64,000 nucleotides of DNA from Candidatus Woesebacteria bacterium GW2011_GWF1_31_35 (GCA_001029755.1 CP011214.1:273564-337563), one strand, 5' to 3'. Shown: positions 21,130 to 59,999, numbered from the stretch's first letter. Notes: a model not told the origin generated them from the sequence alone. Numbers and translations: made by a program.

Positions 21130-21591
21130 TTATGAATGGAGTTGTTTTAAAGCTTCATCAATCAAAAATACTTGATTTTTTCGAAGAAGTGGAAGTTTGT
21201 CTTGTGTAAAAAAACCATATTCTGATACTTCAGAGGTTGGGGCAAAATCTCCACCAATTAAAACTCCTATATAACACATATCCAGTCGGGCAGTATCACG
21301 ATCGGTACGAGTTTTAAGAGATTCATCAACACTTACGACTAATCCTGATTCTTCCTTAATCTCTCTTTCTAAGGCTTCGCGTGGATGTTCACCAGATTTT
21401 AAGTAACCACCAGGTAAACTCCAAGCATGGGACCTATATGTGTGTTTGAAAAGAAGAATTTCATTTTTATCATTAAAAATAATTCCAGTTACACCAACCA
21501 GAAATTGATCTTGAAAAAAACGCATGATAGATAACTGTAAGTTTTTAGGAAGATGAAGGGCTTGATAGATTTTAGCTAGTAGTCTTTTCAC
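21130..21591 (-). CDS. NUDIX hydrolase
   Basis: Nudix box GGYLKSGEHPREALEREIKEESGL. Confidence 0.7.
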   Translation of the reverse strand: MKRLLAKIYQALHLPKNLQLSIMRFFQDQFLVGVTGIIFNDKNEILLFKHTYRSHAWSLPGGYLKSGEHPREALEREIKEESGLVVSVDESLKTRTDRDTARLDMCYIGVLIGGDFAPTSEVSEYGFFTQDKLPLLRKNQVFLIDEALKQLHS

Positions 21592-21932
21592 AATGCATTT
21601 TGGTCTTCTGGTTCAACACTTTTACTGTGTTTTAGTTTTTCGTTTTCTAGTTCCAATTGGTGTACTCGTTTGGTTAACTCTAAAACCTCATCTTTATCCT
21701 TTTTAATTTCCTTATTTTTACCTCTAAGTTTTAAAGAAGTGGAAACTACATGTACAAGGTAAAGAATGTAAGAAAGAACAAGACCTATTAACAATGAACT
21801 CACAATTACGTAAAATAGGGGAATATCTTTAAAAACATACATACCTAAATTAACAGAAACTGGCATGAAATTAAATTTTGAGATATATACTAGGGTTGAC
21901 CCGACAATCAAAAATAAGATTAAAGTAAACAT
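21588..21932 (-). CDS. LapA/DUF1049-like membrane protein with C-terminal coiled coil
   Basis: 114 aa. Two TM helices then a K/E-rich coiled coil. Confidence 0.3.
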   Translation of the reverse strand: MFTLILFLIVGSTLVYISKFNFMPVSVNLGMYVFKDIPLFYVIVSSLLIGLVLSYILYLVHVVSTSLKLRGKNKEIKKDKDEVLELTKRVHQLELENEKLKHSKSVEPEDQNAL

Positions 21933-22053
21933 ACAATACTTTTATTATACATTATCTTTTACTTTAACAAGAAAAAGTAATAAATATTTAATAAAATTTT
22001 TATTTTTTTAATTATCGTTTGACAATACTTTTTAAAAAATTCATACTGAAAGG

Positions 22054-23944: not shown

Positions 23945-24236
23945 ATTTTATTTTATATATATTATGGAAGAAAACCAAAATCAATCTTATTGACGTCCTG
24001 TGATTATATTAAATTGTTCTAGATTAATTTTACCTGAGGCTAAATCAACCCTAGCCTTTTTTATTGCATCCAAATTAATTCTCTATCTAGTTCTACCTGT
24101 CTTGGACTTTGGCTTTTATGACCAATAGTTGGTCTTTAAAGCTTTTTTTTGAGCTGCCTCAATCAATTTTGATGATTCTGACATATGTATATTATAAAAC
24201 TAAAATAAAAAACAATCTATTAGATATATATCTGGA

Positions 24237-24289
24237 TCGAGAATCGTAGCACTAATCTAACCACGCAATTATCTTGTATTTTCAAGGCT
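24237..24289. repeat. Repeat B copy 1: degenerate tRNA-Asn T-arm/3'-end-like element (~55 bp core)
   Basis: TCGAGAATCGTAGCACTAATCTAACCACGCAATTATCTTGTATTTTCAAGGCT, about 85% identical to 26228-26280 and partially to 25957-25982. Its reverse complement resembles the tRNA-Asn 3' half (GGTT..GTACGATTCTCGAGCCA vs GGTTCGAGTCCTACCGGGGGAGCCA). Confidence 0.6.
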
Positions 24290-24344
24290 CTCTTTGACTT
24301 TAGGCTTGTAGCTCAAATTAGGGAAGAAATAAAGAAAATAAAAT

Positions 24345-24713
24345 TTACAATGCAAGTAATTCCTTGAATACAAATTTTCCGCCTTGGGAGGGAAGCCCAA
24401 ATCTATTTACTTCATGGCTACCTGGTTTGAAGAGCAAAATTATTCCCATAATTACATTTGCAAGAGGAACAAAAACTAGTAGACTTAGCCACCCTGATTT
24501 ATCTAAATCATGTAGCCTTCGTGTAAATACGGAAAACATAAACAAAAATAACAAAAGAGACAATATTGTTGAAATAATATTTATTAAAGTATTACTGGGT
24601 GTCATTTTCATGATTTCACTTGCAAGCCAAAAGGCACCCCAAGACATCAAATTACCAACTAGATAAGCTAGCGAACCTATTCTTCCTGAATATAATCTTT
24701 TGAAAAAATCCAT
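24345..24713 (-). CDS. DUF805-family inner-membrane protein
   Basis: 122 aa. FTRRLHDLDKSGWLSL motif typical of DUF805. Confidence 0.55.
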   Translation of the reverse strand: MDFFKRLYSGRIGSLAYLVGNLMSWGAFWLASEIMKMTPSNTLINIISTILSLLLFLFMFSVFTRRLHDLDKSGWLSLLVFVPLANVIMGIILLFKPGSHEVNRFGLPSQGGKFVFKELLAL

Positions 24714-24769
24714 AATTTCAGTTTATGCTTTGTTAAATTAAAAACAAGTTGTCATACGATAATTTTGGG

Positions 24770-24812
24770 TATATTAAGTGCCAACTGGCCCCGCGCAATA
24801 GACGATGTTCGA
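24770..24812. repeat. Repeat A copy 1: pseudo-copy of the tRNA-Asn 3' end plus downstream flank (att-like)
   Basis: TATATTAAGTGCCAACTGGC (identical 20-mer also at 26208 and 27088) followed by CCCCGCGCAATAGACGATGTTCGAAC, which on the minus strand reads GTTCGAAC...CGCGGGGCCAGTTGGCAC, a decayed copy of the tRNA-Asn T-arm/acceptor 3' strand. Confidence 0.6.
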
Positions 24813-24819
24813 ACTTATT

Positions 24820-25860
24820 TTATTTCTGTGGAGAGTACTTGAAATTCACGTTATGTTGTTTAACAGGAAGCTGATATCCATCAGTTTCAAAAGGATAAGC
24901 AAGAACTCCGCTGGGGAAAATTGCATCAGGACTATAACTTTGCCAATAGAAGAACGAGCCAGGTTGAACAAGGTGAAGATGTATGTCCCCCCTTTGAATG
25001 TTCGGATTTACTGATGTATCCGGTACATCGAAGTAGAAGTCAGCAAAGGAGTGAGTACCAACACTACCCAATGCCGGTACAGTGCCAGCAAATCCAATTA
25101 GTTCCCCACGTTTTACCTTGTATCCGATTAGGGCACCGTATGAAGCTGCATTACTCGTGGGTGAAACCGAATAGTTTCCATCCCAAAATATTTGGTATCC
25201 CTGGGCTGGCGCTGCCATGAGGTCGTTACTTGCCCTTTGAGTGTGTCCGGTCAATAGAGGTGAGGTTAATAAGTGATATACAGTCAAATACACTCCCGGC
25301 CAATCAGGACTTGTAGACTCGAAAAATAATTTCACATCATCGGAATGGGCAGATATTCCTCCCGACACAATCTGGGTACTGGTATCTCGAAAGCCAACTA
25401 GCATCATATCGAATGGTGCGAGTACCGGCGAACCGCCTTTATAAGTTTCAAAACTCATGCCAGGCTTATGTTGGTAAGGTTTCCAGCCTGGGTGGCCACC
25501 AACCTTTGGGCCTAGTGTAATTATGTCAGGGTCAGCACCCGTACCATATAACTCTGTATGGGTATTAATACCATCCATACTGGGTGGTGGTAAAGTTATT
25601 GCAGATGCGCTTGTTTTAGGCACGCTTTGAATAGGTATTGTAGTTGACGTAAGGGCGGAAGTGGGTGTTGAAGTCGGGGCTATGGCGGTATTTTTTATTA
25701 ACAGATACACACCTGCTCCAACAATGATCAAAAATATAATTATGATTAAAATCAATTTCCATTTATTTTTAATGGTAGGAATTTTGCTAATTGGTTGTGG
25801 GTTTGGTTGAGTTACTGGAATTTCATTTTGAATAGGATTGGGCGGAATATTGGGATCCAT
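24820..25860 (-). CDS. Secreted/membrane-anchored protein, possibly an M23/LytM-like metallopeptidase; GC-rich foreign gene
   Basis: 346 aa. Pro-rich N-terminus, one TM, a Thr/Ser/Pro linker, and a domain with SAHSDD and GDIHLHLV (HxH-like). GC content of this gene is roughly 45-50% versus ~30% elsewhere in the window. Confidence 0.35.
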   Translation of the reverse strand: MDPNIPPNPIQNEIPVTQPNPQPISKIPTIKNKWKLILIIIIFLIIVGAGVYLLIKNTAIAPTSTPTSALTSTTIPIQSVPKTSASAITLPPPSMDGINTHTELYGTGADPDIITLGPKVGGHPGWKPYQHKPGMSFETYKGGSPVLAPFDMMLVGFRDTSTQIVSGGISAHSDDVKLFFESTSPDWPGVYLTVYHLLTSPLLTGHTQRASNDLMAAPAQGYQIFWDGNYSVSPTSNAASYGALIGYKVKRGELIGFAGTVPALGSVGTHSFADFYFDVPDTSVNPNIQRGDIHLHLVQPGSFFYWQSYSPDAIFPSGVLAYPFETDGYQLPVKQHNVNFKYSPQK

Positions 25861-25956
25861 GAATTAATCATTCCAGAAAGCAACAAGGAAGTCAATCTGA
25901 GGCTAATTTACTCCCGTGACGGTCTAAGCCATTTTATGATTATAGTCCTATCTTGC

Positions 25957-25982
25957 TCGAGAATCGTAACTCTAATATAACC
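25957..25982. repeat. Repeat B partial copy (TCGAGAATCGTAACTCTAATATAACC)
   Basis: Matches the 5' part of repeat B at 24237 and 26228. Confidence 0.45.
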
Positions 25983-25991
25983 TAAGAATTG

Positions 25992-26198
25992 TCACTTGTT
26001 TAAATCGAAATTTGAAAGAAATACAAGAACATCGTTCATAGGATTACTAGATGGTTTTGGCAATATTTGACAATGATAGCCTTGTTTTTGATAACTTACC
26101 CCAACACAATCCCATTGAAAATATCTTGAAGTTAAATTCATCCAAAGAACAAATAAGATAAACGCAGATAATAATAATAAACCAACTTTCTTCATCAT
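25992..26198 (-). CDS. Small secreted hypothetical protein
   Basis: 68 aa with an N-terminal signal/TM segment; weak call. Confidence 0.2.
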   Translation of the reverse strand: MMKKVGLLLLSAFILFVLWMNLTSRYFQWDCVGVSYQKQGYHCQILPKPSSNPMNDVLVFLSNFDLNK

Positions 26199-26207
26199 AT
26201 TTTATTA

Positions 26208-26280
26208 TATATTAAGTGCCAACTGGCTCGAGAATCGTACCACTAATATAACCATGCAATTATCTCATATTCTCAAGGCT
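26208..26280. repeat. Repeat A copy 2 fused to repeat B copy 2 (pseudo tRNA-Asn 3' half plus flank)
   Basis: TATATTAAGTGCCAACTGGC followed by TCGAGAATCGTACCACTAATATAACCATGCAATTATCTCATATTCTCAAGGCT. Confidence 0.6.
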
Positions 26281-26368
26281 TTTGAAGATTTCAAATTGGT
26301 GTCCCAAGTTCGGGAGGAAATAGAGAGAGTAAAAATAATTGAAAAAATTGTGATAACATAGAATATAT

Positions 26369-27046
26369 ATGGAAAATCAAGATATTCAAAACCCAACTCC
26401 AGAATCAACCTTAACTCCAGTACAAGTTTCTGAACCAAGAGCCAAATTCCCTGTCGTGTACTTAGTTTTGTCTTTATTTGTTCTTGTACTTTTAGCTTCG
26501 ACGGTGTTTCTTTATTATCAAAACATACAACTCAAAAATATGCTTGCTAGCTACCAAACTCAGCCTGTAGTTTCACCTACCCCAACCACATATCAATCTC
26601 CAATTCCATCAACCACGGCGGACCTAACCGCCAATTGGAAAATATACACTGATAGCAAAGTGGGTTTCAGCCTAAAATATCCGAATGGGTGGTCTTACAA
26701 ACTAGGTGATACAAATTCGACTACTGGCAATGTAATCTTTGACACAAATTTGGCAAGTGGCAACAAAAATACGAATTATATATTTGATGTTAGTCTCGAG
26801 ACTATGGACAATCTAAACCAGTGGACAAAATATTCAACAACAACAGCTCTCGGTTCTCAGACGGTAAATGGATTGTCTTTTGAAAAATATGTCGTTGCTG
26901 ACATGTATTATTCATTGAATTACATTCTTAAACAAAACGGAAAAATTCTTCGATTCCTTTTATACCCGTATGATTCTAATCAATATCCGACAGAGCTAAA
27001 AACCAATATTGATCAAGTCCTCTCCACTTTTAAATTTATCAATTAA
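26369..27046 (+). CDS. Membrane-anchored extracytoplasmic protein, paralog family member 1 (conserved C-terminal [DN]Q[IV]LSTFKFI)
   Basis: 225 aa. Short cytoplasmic N-terminus, one TM, Pro/Thr linker, ~130-aa C-terminal domain (WKIYTDSKVGFSLKYPNGW ... DQVLSTFKFIN). Paralogs at 39185..39910 and 44771..45484. Confidence 0.4.
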   Translation: MENQDIQNPTPESTLTPVQVSEPRAKFPVVYLVLSLFVLVLLASTVFLYYQNIQLKNMLASYQTQPVVSPTPTTYQSPIPSTTADLTANWKIYTDSKVGFSLKYPNGWSYKLGDTNSTTGNVIFDTNLASGNKNTNYIFDVSLETMDNLNQWTKYSTTTALGSQTVNGLSFEKYVVADMYYSLNYILKQNGKILRFLLYPYDSNQYPTELKTNIDQVLSTFKFIN

Positions 27047-27087
27047 GTTTTGACCAGCCATTTAAGTCTTAATGAAGCTGAACTTGG

Positions 27088-27107
27088 TATATTAAGTGCC
27101 AACTGGC
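27088..27107. repeat. Repeat A copy 3: the authentic 3' flank and last nucleotides of tRNA-Asn
   Basis: TATATTAAGTGCCAACTGGC overlapping the 3' terminal GCCA of tRNA-Asn (27104-27107). Confidence 0.6.
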
Positions 27108-27179
27108 TCCCCCGGTAGGACTCGAACCTACAACCTTATTCTTAACAGGAATCTGCTCTGCCATTGAGCTACAGGGGAT
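27104..27179 (-). tRNA. tRNA-Asn (anticodon GTT), CCA encoded
   Basis: Minus strand: acceptor TCCCCTG/CGGGGGA, D arm GCTC-AATGGCA-GAGC, anticodon loop CTGTTAA, T arm GTAGG-TTCGAGT-CCTAC, 3' GCCA. Confidence 0.8.
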
Positions 27180-27248: not shown

Positions 27249-28412
27249 ATGTGGCTAACAGAAGAATTAAATAATCTAAAAAAATCAGGACTTTATAATA
27301 ATATTTTAACCATAGAAAGTCCTATTGGGGGAGAGATAATAATTGAAGGAAGGAAACTACTTAATTTTTGTTCTAATAACTATTTAGGTCTTGCAAATAA
27401 TCCTCGTCTTAAAAAAGCAGCAATCGCTGCAATTAATAAGTTTGGTGTTGGTCCTGCTGCAGTTAGAACAATTGCAGGAACTACTACTTTACATAAAAAA
27501 CTTGAAAAAGACTTGGCAAAGTTTAAAAAGTGTGAAGCTGTTCTTACCTTTCAAAGTGGTTTCATGGCAAATTTAGCTACAATTCCTGCTTTAGTTGGTG
27601 AAGGAGACTTGATTTTTTCGGATGAACTTAATCATGCCAGTATTATTGATGGTTGTAGAATCTCAAAAGCTACAGTTATTCGTTTTAAACACGCAGATAC
27701 TGTTGATTTAGAATCTTTACTTAAAAAAGCTTCTAAAAAAGTTAAGAAACTAGTAATTACTGATGGAGTATTTTCAATGGATGGAGATATTGCACCCTTA
27801 GATAAAATTTATAAAGTAACTTCAAAATATGGAGCACTTTTAATGGTTGATGATGCACATGGTGAGGGAGTATTAGGTAGAAATGGTAGAGGAATTGTTG
27901 ATCATTTTAATCTTCATGGAAAAGTTGATATTGAAGTTGGAACAATGAGTAAAGCCCTTGGAGTTGTTGGAGGTTTAGTTGCTGGTAAAGGTGAAATTAT
28001 AGAATGGTTAACCCAGCGCGCTAGACCATTTCTTTTTTCTTCAGCTATGACAATTCCTGATGTCGGAGCCTGTATTGAAGCTGTAAAAATTTTAGGAAGC
28101 TCCGGCGTCTTAGTTAAAAAACTTTGGAGTAATGCGGATTATTTAAGTAAAGGTTTAAGTAGATTTGGGTTTGATACAGGTAAAAGTCAAACTCCCATAA
28201 TTCCTTTAATGTTGGGGGAAGTTACTTTGGCAAAAGAATTTAGTAATTTACTTTTTGAAAACGGAGTATTTGCAAAAGCAATTGGCTATCCGACAGTTCC
28301 AGAAGGGAAAGCAAGAATTAGAATAATGAATACTGCGGTTCACACCAAAAAAGACCTTGATAAAGCTCTTTTGGTTTTTGAAAAAGTAGGTAAAACTTTA
28401 AAAGTAATTTAA
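27249..28412 (+). CDS. Pyridoxal-phosphate-dependent glycine C-acetyltransferase / 8-amino-7-oxononanoate synthase family enzyme (Kbl/BioF-like)
   Basis: 387 aa. [21 protein letters not shown]...[15 protein letters not shown] and the PLP-lysine region GTMSKALG. Confidence 0.7.
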
Positions 28413-29365
28413 CATCTTACATTAGCTCCACAATTCTGACAATTAGATATTAGTTGTCCAGATGGTCTTCTGTTAGTTGCACCACAACTTGGACAGGGAA
28501 ATTCTAAGGATCCATATTCATCTGAATATCCAAATGCAAGTGTTTGTGTTTCAGTATTTAGGCCATTTGTATTTAAAAGAGTGATATTTGATTTTCCACA
28601 TCCTGATTTTTCAAGATTCATTCCAAATCCTGCTTTTTCCATTTCTGTCTCAATATAGGCTCCATATTCAAATGGATTACTATAAATTACTGATAGGTTT
28701 TTCATAATTGGTTTATTTACAATAGTAGCTTTTTTTAAAGCTTTGGCTTTATTTTTGACAGCTGTTCCATCTAAAATACTTTGAAAAATTTCTTTTTCTG
28801 GTAATTTGATTATTTCAGACAGATAACTAAAAGGATCTTTCTCTGGTGGTATTTCTAATTTAATTACAATTGATTTTAAATCATCTAAATTTTGTGGAAA
28901 TAGATAATTATTTGAAGAAACAGATACAAGCAGTTGACCAAGTTTTAAACAATCATCTTTTGACAAAGTTGTACTTATTCCATAAGATTCAAAATATTCA
29001 AATTTTTTGCTTTTAGTAATTCTTTTTGCACCTATGTCAATTCTTGTTTCAGGCCAAGGATTTGGTGGACTAATCCAAACATAAGCAAAATTTTCGGTAT
29101 CTTCAAGAAGGAGTTTTCTTATTTCTTCACCAGCAGGAGTTAGAGGATCGTTTCTTACAAACATTTCTGAAACATCTCTTCTATCTATTCCTGGAGCAAT
29201 AACTTTATTTCTCTCTCTTTTTATATAATGATGTGGATTCACTCGTGGATTTCCAGTGTTTGAAGCTTCAATAACAAGAGAAGCTGTGTCATTATTTAAG
29301 GAAGCCAATTTCTGGGGAGTATCGTATCTTCTTAGATCTAGTGCAATAAATTGTTCTTTTGACAT
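28409..29365 (-). CDS. Hypothetical soluble protein with C-terminal double-CxxC zinc ribbon, preceded by a cobalamin-riboswitch-like leader
   Basis: 318 aa. C-terminus [28 protein letters not shown]. No other motif I recognise. Confidence 0.35.
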
Positions 29366-58618: not shown

Positions 58619-58691
58619 GGCTCGGTAACTCAGTGGTCAGAGTGCCAACCTTATAAGTTGGAAGTCGATGGTCCGATCCCATCCCGAGCCA
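58619..58691 (+). tRNA. tRNA-Ile (anticodon TAT / UAU)
   Basis: 73 nt. Acceptor GGCTCGG/CCGAGCC, D arm ACTC-AGTGGTCA-GAGT, anticodon stem CCAAC/GTTGG with loop CTTATAA, T arm GATGG-TCCGATC-CCATC. No encoded CCA. A TATAAT box lies at 58603-58608. Confidence 0.65.
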
Positions 58692-58709
58692 CTAAATTAT
58701 TATTAACCA

Positions 58710-58898
58710 ATGGATAAAAATACAAAACTTCTAGAATTAATAAAGAAAAGAGATGACTATAAAGAGAAACTTACTCAGATGTATAAATATTTTCATGGAG
58801 TAAAACACGAAAGCGCTCATTCTGAACTACAATACTCTGAAATTAAAGTATATGAGGACATGTTAAATTCTGTTGTGGAAGAGATAAATAATTTATAA
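58710..58898 (+). CDS. Hypothetical small protein
   Basis: 62 aa, predicted helical. Confidence 0.2.
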   Translation: MDKNTKLLELIKKRDDYKEKLTQMYKYFHGVKHESAHSELQYSEIKVYEDMLNSVVEEINNL

Positions 58899-58899
58899 A

Positions 58900-59130
58900 T
58901 TAATTTTTATCGGGATTTGAGAAATTGTTGATTGCTTTTATAATTGCATTAAATGCATTTTGATGATCTGTCCATTCATCAAATGACATTGGGCCAGTAC
59001 ATTCTGTGAGAGGGGGGCGATTCTCGAAATTGTCTAGATATTCTTGATAATCAACACGAGATTGTATTAGTGCATTAAAATCTGGTAAATCACTTTTTTC
59101 TCCTTGATTTTGTAATATATCTTTTCTCAC
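58900..59130 (-). CDS. Hypothetical small protein
   Basis: 76 aa, directly downstream of the recombinase gene on the minus strand. Confidence 0.2.
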   Translation of the reverse strand: MRKDILQNQGEKSDLPDFNALIQSRVDYQEYLDNFENRPPLTECTGPMSFDEWTDHQNAFNAIIKAINNFSNPDKN

Positions 59131-59135
59131 TATGG

Positions 59136-59999
59136 TTATAGCTCAATTAAAGACTGTTTTTTACTTGATTCTGTAGTTCCTGCAAGTTCAATATATCTTT
59201 CTGTGGTTGAAAGTCTTTTATGTCCTGCAACTTGAGAAATTAAAATTAAATCAACTCCATTTTTAATGTTTTCTACAATAAATGTGGTTCTTAAATCGTT
59301 TACAGAATATTTTGGAAGTTCTGCTTTTTGAATAAATCTGTCAACTGATGCTCTTATATTTCTAACTGCAAGTGGTTTTCCGGTCTTACTGATAAAAATA
59401 TATTCGGAAACCACTTTTGGTCTTTCAATCATATACTTTTCAATTGCTTCTTTTGCTGGTTTATTTAAAGGAATTGTTCTTTCAGGTTGTGTTGCATAGC
59501 CCTCAATCTTTATAGTTTCTTCATTAATATCAGCAGTTTTAATATTAGCTACTTCTGAAATTCTTAAACCAGTTTGAAGTATTAATTCAATCATTGCAGA
59601 TATTCTAGGATCATTTCTTACAGCATCTCTTAAAGCTCTATACTCTAAAGGAGTTAAAAACTTAGGCATTGAAGCCTCCACCTTAGGATGAGATACACTT
59701 TTAGATAAATCAGTTGAAAGATAGTTTTGTTCTACCATCCATCTAAAGAATGTTTTAACAGCATTTAATTTTCTAGAAACTGATTTTGGTGTATATTTTT
59801 CAGAAAGTAGGGTATCTCTAAATGAATCTAAATTAGAAAGTTTAACTTGGTCTGGAGTTGCAATACTACCTTTAGTCAAAAATTCCACTAATTGCTCAAG
59901 ATCAGATCTATACGCTAAAATCGTGGCTGGAGACCTACCTTTTTCAGCCAAACTTGCCATGAATTTTGGCAATAAACTTTTAATTGTATCCTGTGTCAT
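59136..59999 (-). CDS. Tyrosine site-specific recombinase (XerC/XerD-like)
   Basis: 287 aa. N-terminal SAM-like domain and a C-terminal catalytic region with R...HxxR...Y (GHKRLSTTERYIE). Confidence 0.75.
   Translation of the reverse strand: MTQDTIKSLLPKFMASLAEKGRSPATILAYRSDLEQLVEFLTKGSIATPDQVKLSNLDSFRDTLLSEKYTPKSVSRKLNAVKTFFRWMVEQNYLSTDLSKSVSHPKVEASMPKFLTPLEYRALRDAVRNDPRISAMIELILQTGLRISEVANIKTADINEETIKIEGYATQPERTIPLNKPAKEAIEKYMIERPKVVSEYIFISKTGKPLAVRNIRASVDRFIQKAELPKYSVNDLRTTFIVENIKNGVDLILISQVAGHKRLSTTERYIELAGTTESSKKQSLIEL

What the first reader, a model, noticed from the sequence alone, without database searches (positions are those of the whole stretch)
24237..27179. tRNA-Asn-anchored islet with at least four decayed copies of the tRNA 3' end, indicating serial site-specific integrations
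The intact tRNA-Asn(GTT) is at 27104-27179 (minus). Its 3' terminus plus downstream flank (GCCAGTTGGCACTTAATATA) recurs as an exact 20-mer at 24770 and 26208. At both sites the adjacent sequence, read on the tRNA strand, is a degenerate T-arm/acceptor (GTTCGAAC…CGCGGGGCCA at 24770; GGTACGATTCTCGAGCCA at 26208). A ~55-110-bp repeat containing the same decayed T-arm occurs at 24237, 26228 and partially at 25957. This pattern is what repeated integrase-mediated insertion at a tRNA attB leaves behind, with each event regenerating a tRNA 3' segment. The segments between the repeats carry cargo-like genes: a DUF805 membrane protein, a GC-rich secreted M23-like protein, a small secreted ORF and one member of the extracytoplasmic paralog family. 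No integrase remains inside the islet. The nearest tyrosine recombinase is at 59136.
Basis: seen in the sequence. Interest (0 to 1): 0.65.

Follow-up and report, generated by a model that had tools for sequence, protein, structure and literature searches.

The report
Serine-recombinase cassette array at tRNA-Asn
The repeats next to this tRNA-Asn gene are attachment sites left by a widespread family of large serine recombinases in Microgenomates (CPR) bacteria; they bound four single-gene inserts whose recombinase genes are gone, an ordinary kind of island built by an apparently undescribed element family.

Summary
The sequence observation is real. The exact 20-mer occurs three times, at 24770, 26208 and 27088, and the R repeat three times. 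The closest relative carries a different 9.5-kb insert at the same tRNA-Asn.

The repeats are not decayed tRNA ends. Only G+CCA of the 20-mer is tRNA. The same 20-mer occurs exactly in more than 119 metagenome contigs, in 105 distinct contexts. There it encodes GILSANW near the C-terminus of a ~520-aa large serine recombinase (LSR) that reads antisense into tRNA-Asn.

To its right lies either the tRNA or one of about eight arm families that continue the LSR frame. R is family (a). The "GTTCGAAC" segment is family (d). Full-length LSRs with these tails exist.

The window keeps five such sites, four single-gene cassettes and only 16 LSR codons. Similar arrays occur in 23 of 119 loci, and two window cassettes recur elsewhere with different neighbours.

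Verdict: serial site-specific integration is supported. The "decayed tRNA copies" and tyrosine-integrase readings are not. This is a new variant of a known kind, closest to the Dehalococcoides ssrA islands, tycheposons and phage Mx8 (attP inside its integrase gene).

The parts
27104..27178 (-). tRNA-Asn(GTT), intact, with encoded CCA (27104-27106) and discriminator G (27107). It anchors the array.
   Evidence: ARAGORN. Rfam tRNA model, 63.5 bits. Homology with relatives L001-L006 starts at 27106.
27086..27109 (+). Site c5: the conserved att half 'X' (GGTATATTAAGTGCCAACTGGC) plus the proposed central TC. It matches the family consensus exactly. It overlaps the tRNA's last two acceptor nucleotides, the discriminator and CCA.
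27068..27118 (+). Remnant of the 3' end of a large serine recombinase gene (LNEAELGILSANWLPR*). It reads antisense into the tRNA.
   Evidence: tblastn with the LSR C-terminus of L137: 15/16 identical, E=5e-6. Frame analysis.
26369..27046 (+). Cargo of cassette 4: a 225-aa ORF with an N-terminal transmembrane segment and no family assignment.
   Evidence: The cassette is shared with L175: both ends 82% identical in DNA, including the 40-nt LSR remnant, and 50% protein identity. The N-terminal half is shared with L006.
26208..26229 (+). Site c4: exact 20-mer plus TC. The flank to its left is not LSR-like.
26227..26361 (+). R2: arm/tail family (a), complete. It reads LENRTTNITMQLSHILKAFEDFKLVSQVREEIERVKIIEKIVIT* in the LSR frame.
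   Evidence: A tail (a) consensus built from other metagenomes hits here at E=1.7e-14. Frame analysis.
25992..26198 (-). Cargo of cassette 3: a 68-aa ORF with a hydrophobic N-terminus.
   Evidence: No family hit.
25944..26000 (+). Site c3: a degenerate X (AGTCCTATCTTGCTC, 14 of 18 matching c4) followed by a truncated tail (a), R3, with an in-frame stop (LENRNSNIT*ELSLV).
   Evidence: E=0.003.
24820..25860 (-). Cargo of cassette 2: a 346-aa ORF with an N-terminal transmembrane segment, G+C 0.42-0.47 against about 0.31 background, and no family assignment. The 'M23-like' label is unsupported.
24768..24791 (+). Site c2: GG plus the exact 20-mer, followed by CC instead of the family's TC.
24789..24842 (+). 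Arm/tail family (d), reading PRAIDDVRTYFISVEST* in the LSR frame.
   Evidence: Frame analysis. The tail (d) consensus hits 24798-24830 at E=0.004. Relatives in L129, L169, L155 and L201.
24345..24713 (-). Cargo of cassette 1: a 122-aa DUF805 membrane protein.
   Evidence: Pfam PF05656, E=5e-17. The whole cassette (tail a plus DUF805) is 81% identical over 489 nt to a cassette bounded by X sites in L130/L205.
24224..24238 (+). Site c1: the outermost site. Only ...ATATAT and CTGG-ATC of X remain, with 10 nt (TAAGTGCCAA) absent. It may be the original junction with the chromosome.
   Evidence: Alignments. The same junction plus 37 nt of left flank is shared with L130.
24236..24367 (+). R1: arm/tail family (a), complete. 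It reads IENRSTNLTTQLSCIFKALFDFRLVAQIREEIKKIKFTMQVIP* and overlaps the 3' end of the DUF805 gene on the other strand.
   Evidence: The tail (a) consensus hits here at E=3e-14. More than 50 of the fetched loci hold homologous copies.

Best explanation
The islet (24224-27178) is what remains of several rounds of recombination by large serine recombinases (LSRs) at the 3' end of tRNA-Asn.

**Layout of the att site in this family**
- One half, X, is GGTATATTAAGTGCCAACTGGC.
- X is followed by a probable crossover dinucleotide, TC. This corresponds to tRNA acceptor positions 72-71.
- The other half is either the antisense tRNA-Asn acceptor/T-arm or an element-borne arm about 27 bp long.
- X is also the codons G-ILSANW at the end of the LSR gene. 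The gene sits at the element's end and reads into the tRNA.
- X supplies the tRNA's discriminator G and CCA.

**Consequence of recombination**
Every exchange swaps what follows ...ILSANW-L in the LSR reading frame. That is either a short tRNA-antisense tail or a 30-50-residue tail encoded by the arm.

**State of the window**
Five sites survive in one orientation: c1 to c4, each followed by an arm, and c5 followed by the tRNA. They bound four single-gene cassettes. Every LSR gene has been lost except for 16 terminal codons at c5.

**Shown**
- The repeats.
- Their identity with the LSR 3' end and arm families in many other genomes.
- Coding constraint on the arms.
- Variability of the locus.
- Recurrence of such arrays and of two of these cassettes elsewhere.

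**Inferred**
- The crossover position.
- The order of events.
- Whether LSR-less cassettes move on their own, with an LSR supplied in trans, or are deletion remnants.
For: **1. The repeats are real and local.**
- The 20-mer occurs three times exactly and nowhere else in the 64 kb.

**2. The 20-mer is widespread.**
- These represent 105 contexts less than 85% alike.
- Conservation is confined to ctaAAcTTGG + 20-mer + TC.

**3. It lies inside a recombinase gene.**
- In six loci it sits in frame at the end of an intact 512-527-codon ORF.
- That ORF carries Resolvase, Recombinase and Zn_ribbon_recom domains.

**4. It is linked to tRNA-Asn.**
- To its right, ARAGORN calls a tRNA-Asn in 11 cases.
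- At least 7 more are intron-containing tRNA-Asn genes.
- Otherwise the right flank belongs to a recurrent arm family.

**5. The recombinase family ends on tRNAs or in tails.**
- Among 115 LSR homologues, down to about 30% identity, most end in tRNA-antisense peptides such as LPRVDSNHEP.
- About 20 are full-length LSRs continuing in frame into tails (a), (c), (e) or (g).

**6. The window's repeats belong to these arm families.**
- R1, R2 and R3 match the tail (a) consensus at E=3e-14, 1.7e-14 and 0.003.
- The c2 flank matches tail (d) at E=0.004.

**7. Tail (a) shows two kinds of constraint (23 copies).**
- There is 1 in-frame stop, against 68 and 87 in the other forward frames.
- Codon-position diversity is 0.20/0.12/0.29.
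- The first 9 codons (about 27 bp) show no synonymous variation.
- Later invariant residues use 2-4 codons each.

**8. The locus is variable.**
- The closest relative (Kbl 91%) has 9.5 kb of unrelated DNA between LapA and tRNA-Asn. It includes another LSR ending on the tRNA.
- Homology with the window resumes at 27106.

**9. Arrays are common.**
- 23 of 119 loci have two or more sites in direct orientation.
- Spacing is 117-5376 nt, and segments mostly hold one ORF. About 0.5 extra sites are expected by chance.

**10. Cassettes recur with different neighbours.**
- The DUF805 cassette recurs in L130/L205 and the 225-aa cassette in L175.

**11. Encoded CCA tracks X.**
- tRNA-Asn in L002 and L006, which lack X, has no encoded CCA. 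The window's tRNA has one.
Against: - No LSR gene is present in the window, so activity here cannot be claimed.
- The dyad-symmetry signal that places the crossover at TC is modest. Mean match is 6.1 of 16 at one offset against about 4 elsewhere, and the best-offset score is not above shuffles.
- The left flanks of c2 and c4 show no LSR remnant. Simple deletion of an end-located LSR gene does not predict this.
- In L213 the intact element is the one farthest from the tRNA, so insertion is not always next to the tRNA.
- No circular or viral contig carrying the LSR was found.
- AlphaFold gives the tail low confidence, pLDDT 33-55.
- All 119 matches are exact by construction of the search. Exactness of the 20-mer across contigs is therefore partly a selection effect.
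Confidence: 0.8

Rival explanations
1. A tyrosine integrase inserted elements repeatedly into the tRNA-Asn attB. Each event regenerated the tRNA 3' segment and left a displaced tRNA 3' end that then decayed. R and the GTTCGAAC segment would be those decayed tRNA ends.
For: - The location at a tRNA 3' end and the direct repeats fit.
- In other loci, true displaced tRNA-Asn 3' fragments do sit before the 20-mer. L125 and L111 show ...CGAATCCTACCGGGCGAG-CCA about 85 nt after an intact tRNA.
- 10 of 70 non-tRNA flanks in the metagenome set are significantly tRNA-like, z>3.
- The pooled non-tRNA flanks keep a weak tRNA-like consensus, CTCccc..ggAc...ttc.aac.
Against: - Only 4-6 nt of the repeat are tRNA sequence.
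- The window's four flanks are not tRNA-like: z = -0.4 to 1.0.
- They belong to arm families with a protein-coding substitution pattern in the LSR frame.
- The associated enzyme is a serine recombinase.
- The only tyrosine recombinase in the window is Xer-like and 32 kb away.
Confidence: 0.07
2. The repeats are a host regulatory or structural element that is merely reiterated between genes. Candidates are a promoter, a terminator, a tRNA 3' processing signal or a small RNA.
For: - The 20-mer contains TTGGCA and TATA-like hexamers. It lies about 10-60 nt upstream of two minus-strand ORFs, DUF805 and the 68-aa ORF.
- An 8-bp inverted repeat follows it in many contigs: CCAAGTTT...AAACTTGG.
Against: - There is no consistent -35/-10 spacing across the three copies.
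- No Rfam family other than the tRNA matches.
- The motif is absent from the rest of the 64-kb window.
- The locus is variable between relatives.
- In other genomes the motif is coding sequence of a recombinase.
- The flanks show a codon-position pattern.
Confidence: 0.04
3. A purely local history. One intergenic segment (core plus R) was duplicated in tandem with neighbouring genes and then diverged, without any site-specific recombinase.
For: - R1 and R2 are 76% identical over 112 nt.
- R3 is a partial copy.
- A paralogue-like 225-aa ORF family exists in the window.
Against: - Neutral divergence would not leave three exact 20-mers with sharply unalignable flanks.
- The same core and arms occur in over 100 other contexts.
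- Two cassettes recur in other genomes with different neighbours.
Confidence: 0.04
4. The array of arms is a functional reservoir of alternative recombinase C-termini. It would resemble orphan toxin-tip modules or shufflon segments, used to change the specificity or directionality of an LSR.
For: - The arms are coding and fall into several families, all joined at the same ILSANW-L point.
- Full-length LSRs carrying different tails exist.
Against: - The window has no LSR to serve.
- The sites are direct repeats, so exchange deletes rather than inverts.
- The tail is predicted with low confidence.
- One window tail contains a stop codon (R3), and the core before R1 (site c1) is degenerate.
Confidence: 0.05

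Closest known systems
Dehalococcoides ssrA genomic islands (McMurdie et al. 2011, PMC3146451, read)
   Same: - Tandem islands lie downstream of a single-copy tRNA-like gene, each bounded by a 20-bp direct repeat.
- A roughly 540-aa serine recombinase (DsiB) sits at the island edge, with a second small serine recombinase beside it. L213 likewise has a 220-aa resolvase next to the LSR.
- Many islands lack any integration module and are interpreted as cis-mobilizable elements gathered by accretion.
   Different: - The target there is tmRNA (the T-loop of ssrA), not the acceptor end of tRNA-Asn.
- The repeat there is a copy of the ssrA 3' end. Here only G+CCA is tRNA.
- Those islands are multi-kb and carry rdhA operons. 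Here the cassettes are 0.25-1.2 kb with one gene each.
- That paper does not report an att site inside the recombinase reading frame.
Tycheposons of Prochlorococcus (bioRxiv 10.1101/2020.12.28.424599)
   Same: - Serial integrations occur at a tRNA in a streamlined genome.
- Incoming elements push older ones further into the island.
- Degenerate remnants and fragmented integrases are left behind.
- A minority of elements use large serine recombinases.
   Different: - Tycheposons mostly use tyrosine recombinases.
- Their repeats are partial tRNAs.
- Their elements carry replication modules and multi-gene cargo.
Myxophage Mx8 IntP/IntX (review PMC6070905)
   Same: attP lies inside the integrase coding sequence. 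Integration next to a tRNA gene therefore gives the integrase gene a new 3' end and a different C-terminus.
   Different: - Mx8 Int is a tyrosine recombinase.
- It is a single phage and single event, not a family with many alternative tails or cassette arrays.
SSV-type archaeal integrases and 'gene capture' (from my own knowledge: She et al. 2001; not read here)
   Same: - The att site lies within the int gene, so integration into a tRNA splits the gene.
- Captured elements and int fragments accumulate next to tRNA genes.
   Different: - These are tyrosine recombinases in archaea.
- The att core there is about 44 bp of tRNA sequence.
- The int gene is split near its N-terminus.
Integrons
   Same: The array is unidirectional, made of mostly single-gene, promoter-poor cassettes, each carrying one recombination site.
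   Different: - There is no IntI tyrosine recombinase, no attI and no Pc promoter.
- The sites are not attC hairpins but about 50 bp LSR-type sites.
- Cassette capture is unproven here.
- This is a functional analogy only.
Canonical phage large serine integrases (Bxb1, phiC31, A118; PMC3783163 listed, not read in detail)
   Same: - The domain set is the same: Resolvase, Recombinase and zinc ribbon, with a long coiled coil. The predicted structure is confident to about residue 510.
- The inferred att length is about 50 bp, with an asymmetric central dinucleotide.
   Different: - One half-site is identical in all site types here, so attL and attR would look like attP and attB.
- The target is a tRNA end.
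- The att site lies inside the recombinase's own gene.

Membership tests
tRNA-anchored genomic island built by serial site-specific integration | Lies directly at the 3' end of a tRNA gene | tested here: met
   tRNA-Asn lies at 27104-27178, and site c5 overlaps its last nucleotides.
tRNA-anchored genomic island built by serial site-specific integration | Direct repeats of the att core at the tRNA, at the far end and between segments | tested here: met
   Three exact and two degenerate copies, all in one orientation.
tRNA-anchored genomic island built by serial site-specific integration | Content differs between related genomes while the flanks are syntenic | tested here: met
   L001/L002 align at 21586-21958 and again from 27106 onward. 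Between these points lie 9.5 kb of unrelated DNA. L006 has other cassettes.
tRNA-anchored genomic island built by serial site-specific integration | A recombinase gene inside or at the edge of the island | tested here: not met
   Only 16 terminal codons remain in the window. Intact genes are present at the equivalent place in L122, L137, L171, L174 and L185.
Large serine recombinase integrative element | Recombinase with Resolvase, Recombinase and zinc-ribbon domains linked to the repeats | tested here: met
   Pfam on the L137 protein gives E = 5e-27, 3e-16 and 1e-8. The 20-mer lies in frame in its last codons. This holds for related loci, not for the window itself.
Large serine recombinase integrative element | att sites of about 40-50 bp with imperfect dyad symmetry around an asymmetric central dinucleotide | tested here: inconclusive
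   The conserved left half is 22-24 bp. The arm shows DNA-level constraint for about 27 bp. An inverted copy of the left half is enriched at a single offset, which puts the centre at C[TC]N, but the signal is weak.
Large serine recombinase integrative element | Recombination between the sites demonstrated (circular form, empty site) | not testable with these tools
   No circular or viral contig was found. No reads are available.
Partial-tRNA repeats left by tyrosine integrases | The repeat is a copy of the tRNA's 3' segment (typically 15 nt or more of tRNA sequence) | tested here: not met
   Only 4 nt (G+CCA) of the 20-mer lie in the tRNA, or 6 nt counting the TC beside it. The flanks are not tRNA-like, z between -0.4 and 1.0.
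Integron | IntI-type tyrosine recombinase with attI and Pc next to the array; attC sites with R''-L''/L'-R' structure | tested here: not met
   No such gene is found near the array. The sites are LSR coding sequence, not attC. No dedicated attC model was run.
att site inside the recombinase gene (Mx8-like arrangement) | Recombination changes the 3' end and C-terminus of the recombinase | tested here: met
   The same ...ILSANW-L junction is followed by tRNA-antisense peptides in most homologues and by tails (a), (c), (e) or (g) in about 20 full-length proteins. The enzyme class differs from Mx8.

The most novel reading that the evidence does not exclude
Microgenomates (CPR) bacteria may carry an integron-like gene-capture system run by large serine recombinases at tRNA-Asn.
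- Small single-gene cassettes, each carrying a roughly 50-bp site (the X half plus a tRNA-mimicking arm), would be inserted, stacked, shuffled and lost at the tRNA's acceptor end by recombinases supplied in trans.
- Because one half-site is common to all site types, each insertion would regenerate a usable target.
- The element would supply the tRNA's discriminator and CCA.
- Each exchange would rewrite the recombinase's own C-terminal 30-50 residues, which could act as a built-in directionality or activity switch.
Probability: 0.25. Interest if true: 0.75.

Novelty: new variant of a known kind. Interest (0 to 1): 0.55.

Why it matters
For this window, the result turns an unexplained set of repeats into a dated scar. 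It marks four genes as accessory: DUF805, a GC-rich 346-aa membrane or secreted protein, a 68-aa ORF and a 225-aa ORF. It also explains why this tRNA-Asn has an encoded CCA when its relatives' do not.

More broadly, mobile elements of CPR bacteria are poorly known. Here a single 20-mer links more than a hundred contigs from groundwater, sediment and other metagenomes to one LSR family with a defined target (the tRNA-Asn acceptor end), a defined roughly 50-bp site and a recurrent array architecture.

LSRs are sought-after genome-engineering tools. A family whose att site is readable directly from its own gene, and whose C-terminus changes with the recombination state, would give many natural enzyme/site pairs and a testable idea about directionality control without a separate factor.

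Tried and rejected
- **Promoter reading of the 20-mer.** TTGGCA as -35 gives inconsistent -10 elements at the three copies, so it was rejected.
- **Rfam search of the islet at E<=10.** Only the tRNA matched.
- **Exact look-ups of the window's own Kbl and 225-aa proteins and of P0001.** None is on record, so no strain-level comparison was possible.
- **Viral-contig scans.** The 17-mer gave 7 hits, all in unrelated phage coding sequence and at chance level. The R pattern gave none, and the LSR gave no relatives.
- **Genome scan with Kbl.** Only L014 was useful: tRNA-Asn next to kbl, with CCA and a partial X-like flank.
- **Testing whether the tail is homologous to the C-terminal segment of the L002-type LSR.** BLASTP was not significant, E=40.
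- **Looking for the left end of the intact element in L213 by X similarity or repeats.** It was not found.
- **AlphaFold model of an LSR with tail (a).** The body is confident and the tail is not, so it says nothing about tail function.
- **A 14-nt match between the tRNA anticodon region and 24860-24873.** About one such match is expected by chance, so it was discarded.
- **The in-frame continuity between the 225-aa ORF and the LSR remnant.** I judged it coincidental. There is no protein similarity, and a 1-nt indel separates the remnant from the LSR frame further upstream (read).

Full report
**1. What is in the sequence**

ARAGORN and Rfam place an intact tRNA-Asn(GTT) at 27104-27178 on the minus strand. 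Its CCA is encoded.

The 20-mer GCCAGTTGGCACTTAATATA occurs exactly at 24770, 26208 and 27088. It occurs nowhere else in the 64 kb even with three mismatches, against 0.01 expected.

Read on the tRNA strand, the 20-mer is the discriminator G, CCA and 16 nt of downstream flank. Only four of its bases are tRNA.

Repeat R is present at 24232-24343 and 26223-26334 (76% identity over 112 nt). A partial copy lies at 25944-26000.

Alignment shows that R1 and R3 are each preceded by a degenerate copy of the 20-mer:
- c1 at 24224-24238 has 10 nt missing.
- c3 at 25944-25958 matches c4 at 14 of 18 positions.

There are therefore five sites in one orientation. Four are followed by something other than the tRNA. 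Between them lie four segments of 0.25-1.2 kb, each dominated by one ORF:

| Segment | ORF | Strand |
|---|---|---|
| 1 | DUF805, 122 aa | - |
| 2 | 346 aa, GC-rich | - |
| 3 | 68 aa | - |
| 4 | 225 aa | + |

The 'M23-like' label for the 346-aa ORF has no support in Pfam, NCBIfam or PDB sequence searches.

**2. The organism and the locus in relatives**

The neighbouring glycine C-acetyltransferase (Kbl) is about 100% identical (rounded BLASTP value) to a protein of Candidatus Woesebacteria RIFOXYC1_FULL_31_51, a Microgenomates (CPR) bacterium.

Contigs of the closest available relative (Kbl 91% identical; L001-L004) align with the window at 21586-21958 (LapA-domain gene) and again from 27106 onward (tRNA-Asn, kbl). 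Between those points they carry 9.5 kb of unrelated DNA. That DNA holds:
- a restriction-modification system;
- a 527-aa large serine recombinase whose last codons overlap the tRNA-Asn 3' end.

A more distant relative (L006, 85%) has other cassettes, flanked by decayed relatives of R.

The locus is therefore a variable hot spot.

**3. The 20-mer is the signature of a recombinase family**

These are not copies of one locus. A total of 105 contexts are less than 85% identical over 110 nt. Conservation collapses outside ctaAAcTTGG + 20-mer + TC.

On the strand opposite the tRNA, the 20-mer reads (G)-I-L-S-A-N-W. In six loci this is the end of an intact ORF of 512-527 codons. Its C-terminus is ...YLHFFFQKIWVQNKKIMEVEYTPALQVLNEAKLGILSANWL.

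Pfam finds Resolvase, Recombinase and Zn_ribbon_recom domains in it. It is a large serine recombinase (LSR).

The window contains no such gene. It does retain LNEAELGILSANWLPR* at 27068-27118, which is 15 of 16 identical to the family C-terminus.

**4. What lies to the right of the site**

In the metagenome set, 11 sites abut an ARAGORN-called tRNA-Asn. At least seven more abut tRNA-Asn genes interrupted by a group I intron. That intron is a feature already described for Patescibacteria (PMC13011429).

The remaining sites are followed by recurrent sequence families that continue the LSR reading frame for 15-50 codons. The main ones are:
- (a) LENRNSNITTQLSxIIKAFSDFRLVAQIREEIEKVK
- (b) LRVPSFALTTALSHVLKAFQNPIWSEQARERLKQIK
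- (c) LERWYDYRTIDWANQLEYPEF
- (d) LPVVDDVRTY
- several others, here called (e) to (h)

A consensus of family (a), built only from other metagenomes, finds the window's repeats:

| Window copy | Family | E-value |
|---|---|---|
| R2 | (a) | 1.7e-14 |
| R1 | (a) | 3e-14 |
| R3 | (a) | 0.003 |
| 24798-24830 | (d) | 0.004 |

Nothing else in the window matches.

Aligned directly to the window's tRNA-Asn 3' half, they score no better than shuffles, with z between -0.4 and 1.0. Some metagenomic flanks (10 of 70) are genuinely tRNA-like. The pooled arms also keep a faint tRNA-like consensus.

**5. The arms are both DNA sites and coding sequence**

This rests on 23 distinct ungapped copies of arm (a):
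- The LSR frame has one stop codon. The other two forward frames have 68 and 87.
- Diversity by codon position is 0.20/0.12/0.29.
- The first nine codons (about 27 bp) show essentially no synonymous variation: AAT x19, CGT x21, AAT x23, ATA x22, ACC x23.
- Later invariant residues use two to four codons each. Examples are L = TTG/TTA, V = GTA/GTT/GTG/GTC and R = AGA/AGG/CGG/CGT.

Family (b) shows the same pattern over KAFQNPIW.

I read this as a DNA-level constraint over a half-site about 27 bp long, followed by a protein-level constraint.

The protein database confirms that the tails are translated as part of the recombinase. Among 115 homologues, most end in tRNA-antisense peptides such as ...WLPRVDSNHEP and ...LRGQDSNLEP, even at 30% identity. 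About 20 are full-length LSRs of 550-580 aa that run in frame into a tail:

| Tail | Proteins |
|---|---|
| (a) | P0167, P0168; a variant lacking 'NWL' in P0154, P0163, P0192, P0211 |
| (c) | P0157, P0209 |
| (e) | P0174, P0190 |
| (g) | P0161, P0165, P0193, P0198, P0200 |

An AlphaFold model of P0167 is confident for the LSR body to about residue 510. The tail is not confident, with pLDDT 33-55. What the tail does is therefore open.

**6. Anatomy of the site (partly inferred)**

The conserved half, which I call X, is GGTATATTAAGTGCCAACTGGC. The two bases after it, TC, are nearly invariant, with information content 1.7 and 1.6 bits.

Right flanks carry a weak inverted copy of the inner part of X at one preferred offset. 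Mean match is 6.1 of 16, against about 4 at other offsets. This places the dyad centre at C[TC]N.

On the tRNA strand, TC is the last two bases of the acceptor stem. X then supplies the discriminator, CCA and the downstream flank.

This fits an observation from the relatives. tRNA-Asn in L002 and L006, which lack X, has no encoded CCA. The window's tRNA has one.

If X is common to all site types, the two products of an insertion have the same half-site make-up as the two substrates. A usable target would then persist next to the tRNA. That would explain stacking, but it is an inference. The symmetry signal is modest, and the best-offset score is not above shuffled controls.

**7. Arrays and cassettes elsewhere**

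Of the 119 loci, 23 contain two or more X-like sites (at most 5 mismatches of 22) in direct orientation. About 0.5 extra sites are expected by chance. Spacing runs from 117 to 5376 nt, with a median near 800. Most segments are filled by one ORF on either strand.

L134 and L130/L205 are close analogues of the window: X-arm(a) ... X-arm(a) ... X-tRNA-Asn.

Two of the window's cassettes recur as units:
- Arm (a) plus DUF805 is 81% identical over 489 nt to a cassette bounded by X sites in L130/L205. There it is followed by another arm (a) cassette rather than by arm (d) and the 346-aa gene.
- Arm (a) plus the 225-aa ORF, the 40-nt LSR remnant and X recurs in L175, with 82% identity at both ends. 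There it is followed by another arm instead of the tRNA.

L130 also shares the window's outermost junction (c1 with its deleted X) and 37 nt of left flank. c1 may therefore be the original junction with the chromosome. Relative to L130, the window appears to have lost one cassette between two arm (a) copies.

In L213, an intact element lies at the end of the array far from the tRNA. It carries Prim-Pol, a 220-aa resolvase and an LSR with arm (a). Insertion is therefore not always next to the tRNA.

**8. How the islet most likely arose**

Elements of structure [arm ... cargo ... LSR ending in X] recombined at X-TC next to tRNA-Asn several times. The LSR genes were then lost, leaving four cargo genes and five sites.

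Alternatively, LSR-less derivatives that kept an intact site were moved by recombinases supplied in trans. Two observations favour some selection for an intact site, hence mobilisable cassettes:
- X is preserved exactly at c2 and c4 although nothing LSR-like remains to its left.
- The same holds in most metagenomic contexts.

The 40-nt remnant at c5 looks like a plain deletion scar.

Several sites now look inactive:
- c2 has CC instead of TC.
- The tail after c3 (R3) has an in-frame stop codon.
- c1 and c3 have degenerate cores.

With no LSR in 64 kb, the array is probably frozen at present.

**9. Comparison with known systems**

The general phenomenon is well known. Examples are the tandem ssrA islands of Dehalococcoides and the tycheposons of Prochlorococcus.
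- The ssrA islands have 20-bp repeats, a CcrB-like serine recombinase and integrase-less islands ascribed to accretion (PMC3146451).
- In tycheposons, newcomers push older elements inward and leave partial tRNAs and broken integrases.

An att site inside the integrase gene that changes the enzyme's C-terminus on integration is known for the tyrosine integrase of phage Mx8 (PMC6070905). From my own knowledge, it is also known for SSV-type archaeal integrases.

What I did not find described is this combination:
- an LSR family in CPR bacteria that targets the acceptor end of tRNA-Asn;
- an att half-site that doubles as the enzyme's own codons and as the tRNA's G-CCA;
- a set of alternative coding arms;
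- arrays of single-gene cassettes.

The resemblance to integrons is functional only. No IntI, attI or attC is present.

**10. Verdict**

It is wrong on three points: what the repeats are, which enzyme made them, and the relevance of the Xer-like gene at 59136.

The window's islet is itself an ordinary decayed island. The element family it points to is a new variant of a known kind, and its mechanism is directly testable.

Noticed in passing
L002 971-9866 (also L001, L003): The closest relative carries an 8.8-kb element at the same tRNA-Asn. It holds N6_Mtase and Methylase_S genes, an HTH protein and a 527-aa LSR only 22% identical to the 20-mer family. Its own 17-nt core, AGATTGATAATACGACC, also lies in the LSR's last codons, 36 nt from the tRNA. 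Decayed copies of the core sit at 1106 and 1221.
   Followed up: partly
L095, L131, L137, L138, L164, L184, L190 (upstream of the 20-mer): These tRNA-Asn genes are interrupted by a group I intron in the anticodon loop and are missed by ARAGORN. This matches the recently described Patescibacteria tRNA-Asn introns at position 35/36 (PMC13011429).
   Followed up: partly
window 24000-24186 (-): A broken small ORF lies just outside the array. It reads MSESSKLIEAAQKKALKTNYWS*, continues in other frames and ends ...RINLDAIKKARVDLASGKINLEQFNIITGRQ*. It looks like a frameshifted small regulator or antitoxin gene.
   Followed up: no
window 28409-29365 (-): This 318-aa ORF lies on the other side of kbl. 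It shares only its last 41 residues with the 272-aa gene at the same position in L001-L005. It is a second variable spot flanking kbl.
   Followed up: no
window 58619-59999: The tyrosine recombinase at 59136-59999 (-) is a 287-aa Xer-like protein. It lies about 440 nt beyond the end of a tRNA called Ile(TAT) by ARAGORN. No link to the islet was found.
   Followed up: partly
L096, L186, L182, L163; L214 12480-20416: Small GIY-YIG nuclease ORFs end immediately before a pseudo-tRNA 3' end plus the 20-mer. In L214, GIY-YIG ORFs are also interspersed among tRNA genes.
   Followed up: no
L125, L111 (upstream of the 20-mer): An intact tRNA-Asn without encoded CCA is followed by about 85 nt that begin with CAG (CAGGAG in L125; CAGAAT, as in L002, in L111). 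A displaced fragment ...CGAATCCTACCGGGCGAG-CCA plus the 20-mer follows. A second element type has inserted within the tRNA and left a true partial-tRNA repeat.
   Followed up: partly
P0145 (568-nt contig): The arm (a) peptide is fused in frame to a C-terminus resembling a tyrosine recombinase catalytic domain (HGLRHAYAQRLY...LGHERLPVVAIY).
   Followed up: no
L006 9826-9856: The sequence directly after tRNA-Asn in L006 (CAATTAACGCATTCAGG) matches arm family (g), but in the opposite orientation to that seen in arrays. This hints at an inversion event.
   Followed up: no
L214 11480-11520; P0154, P0163, P0192, P0211, P0231: A clade of full-length LSRs carries tail (a) but lacks 9 nt (codons NWL) at the proposed crossover. 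In L214 a separate X site next to tRNA-Asn lies 711 nt downstream of the gene's end. These may be 'locked' fusions or an ancestral form.
   Followed up: partly
L213 6650-11740: An intact element in a Woesebacteria genome (GCA_003531655.1) combines a Prim-Pol replication protein and a 220-aa small resolvase with the LSR. The pairing recalls the DsiA/DsiB pair of the Dehalococcoides ssrA islands.
   Followed up: partly
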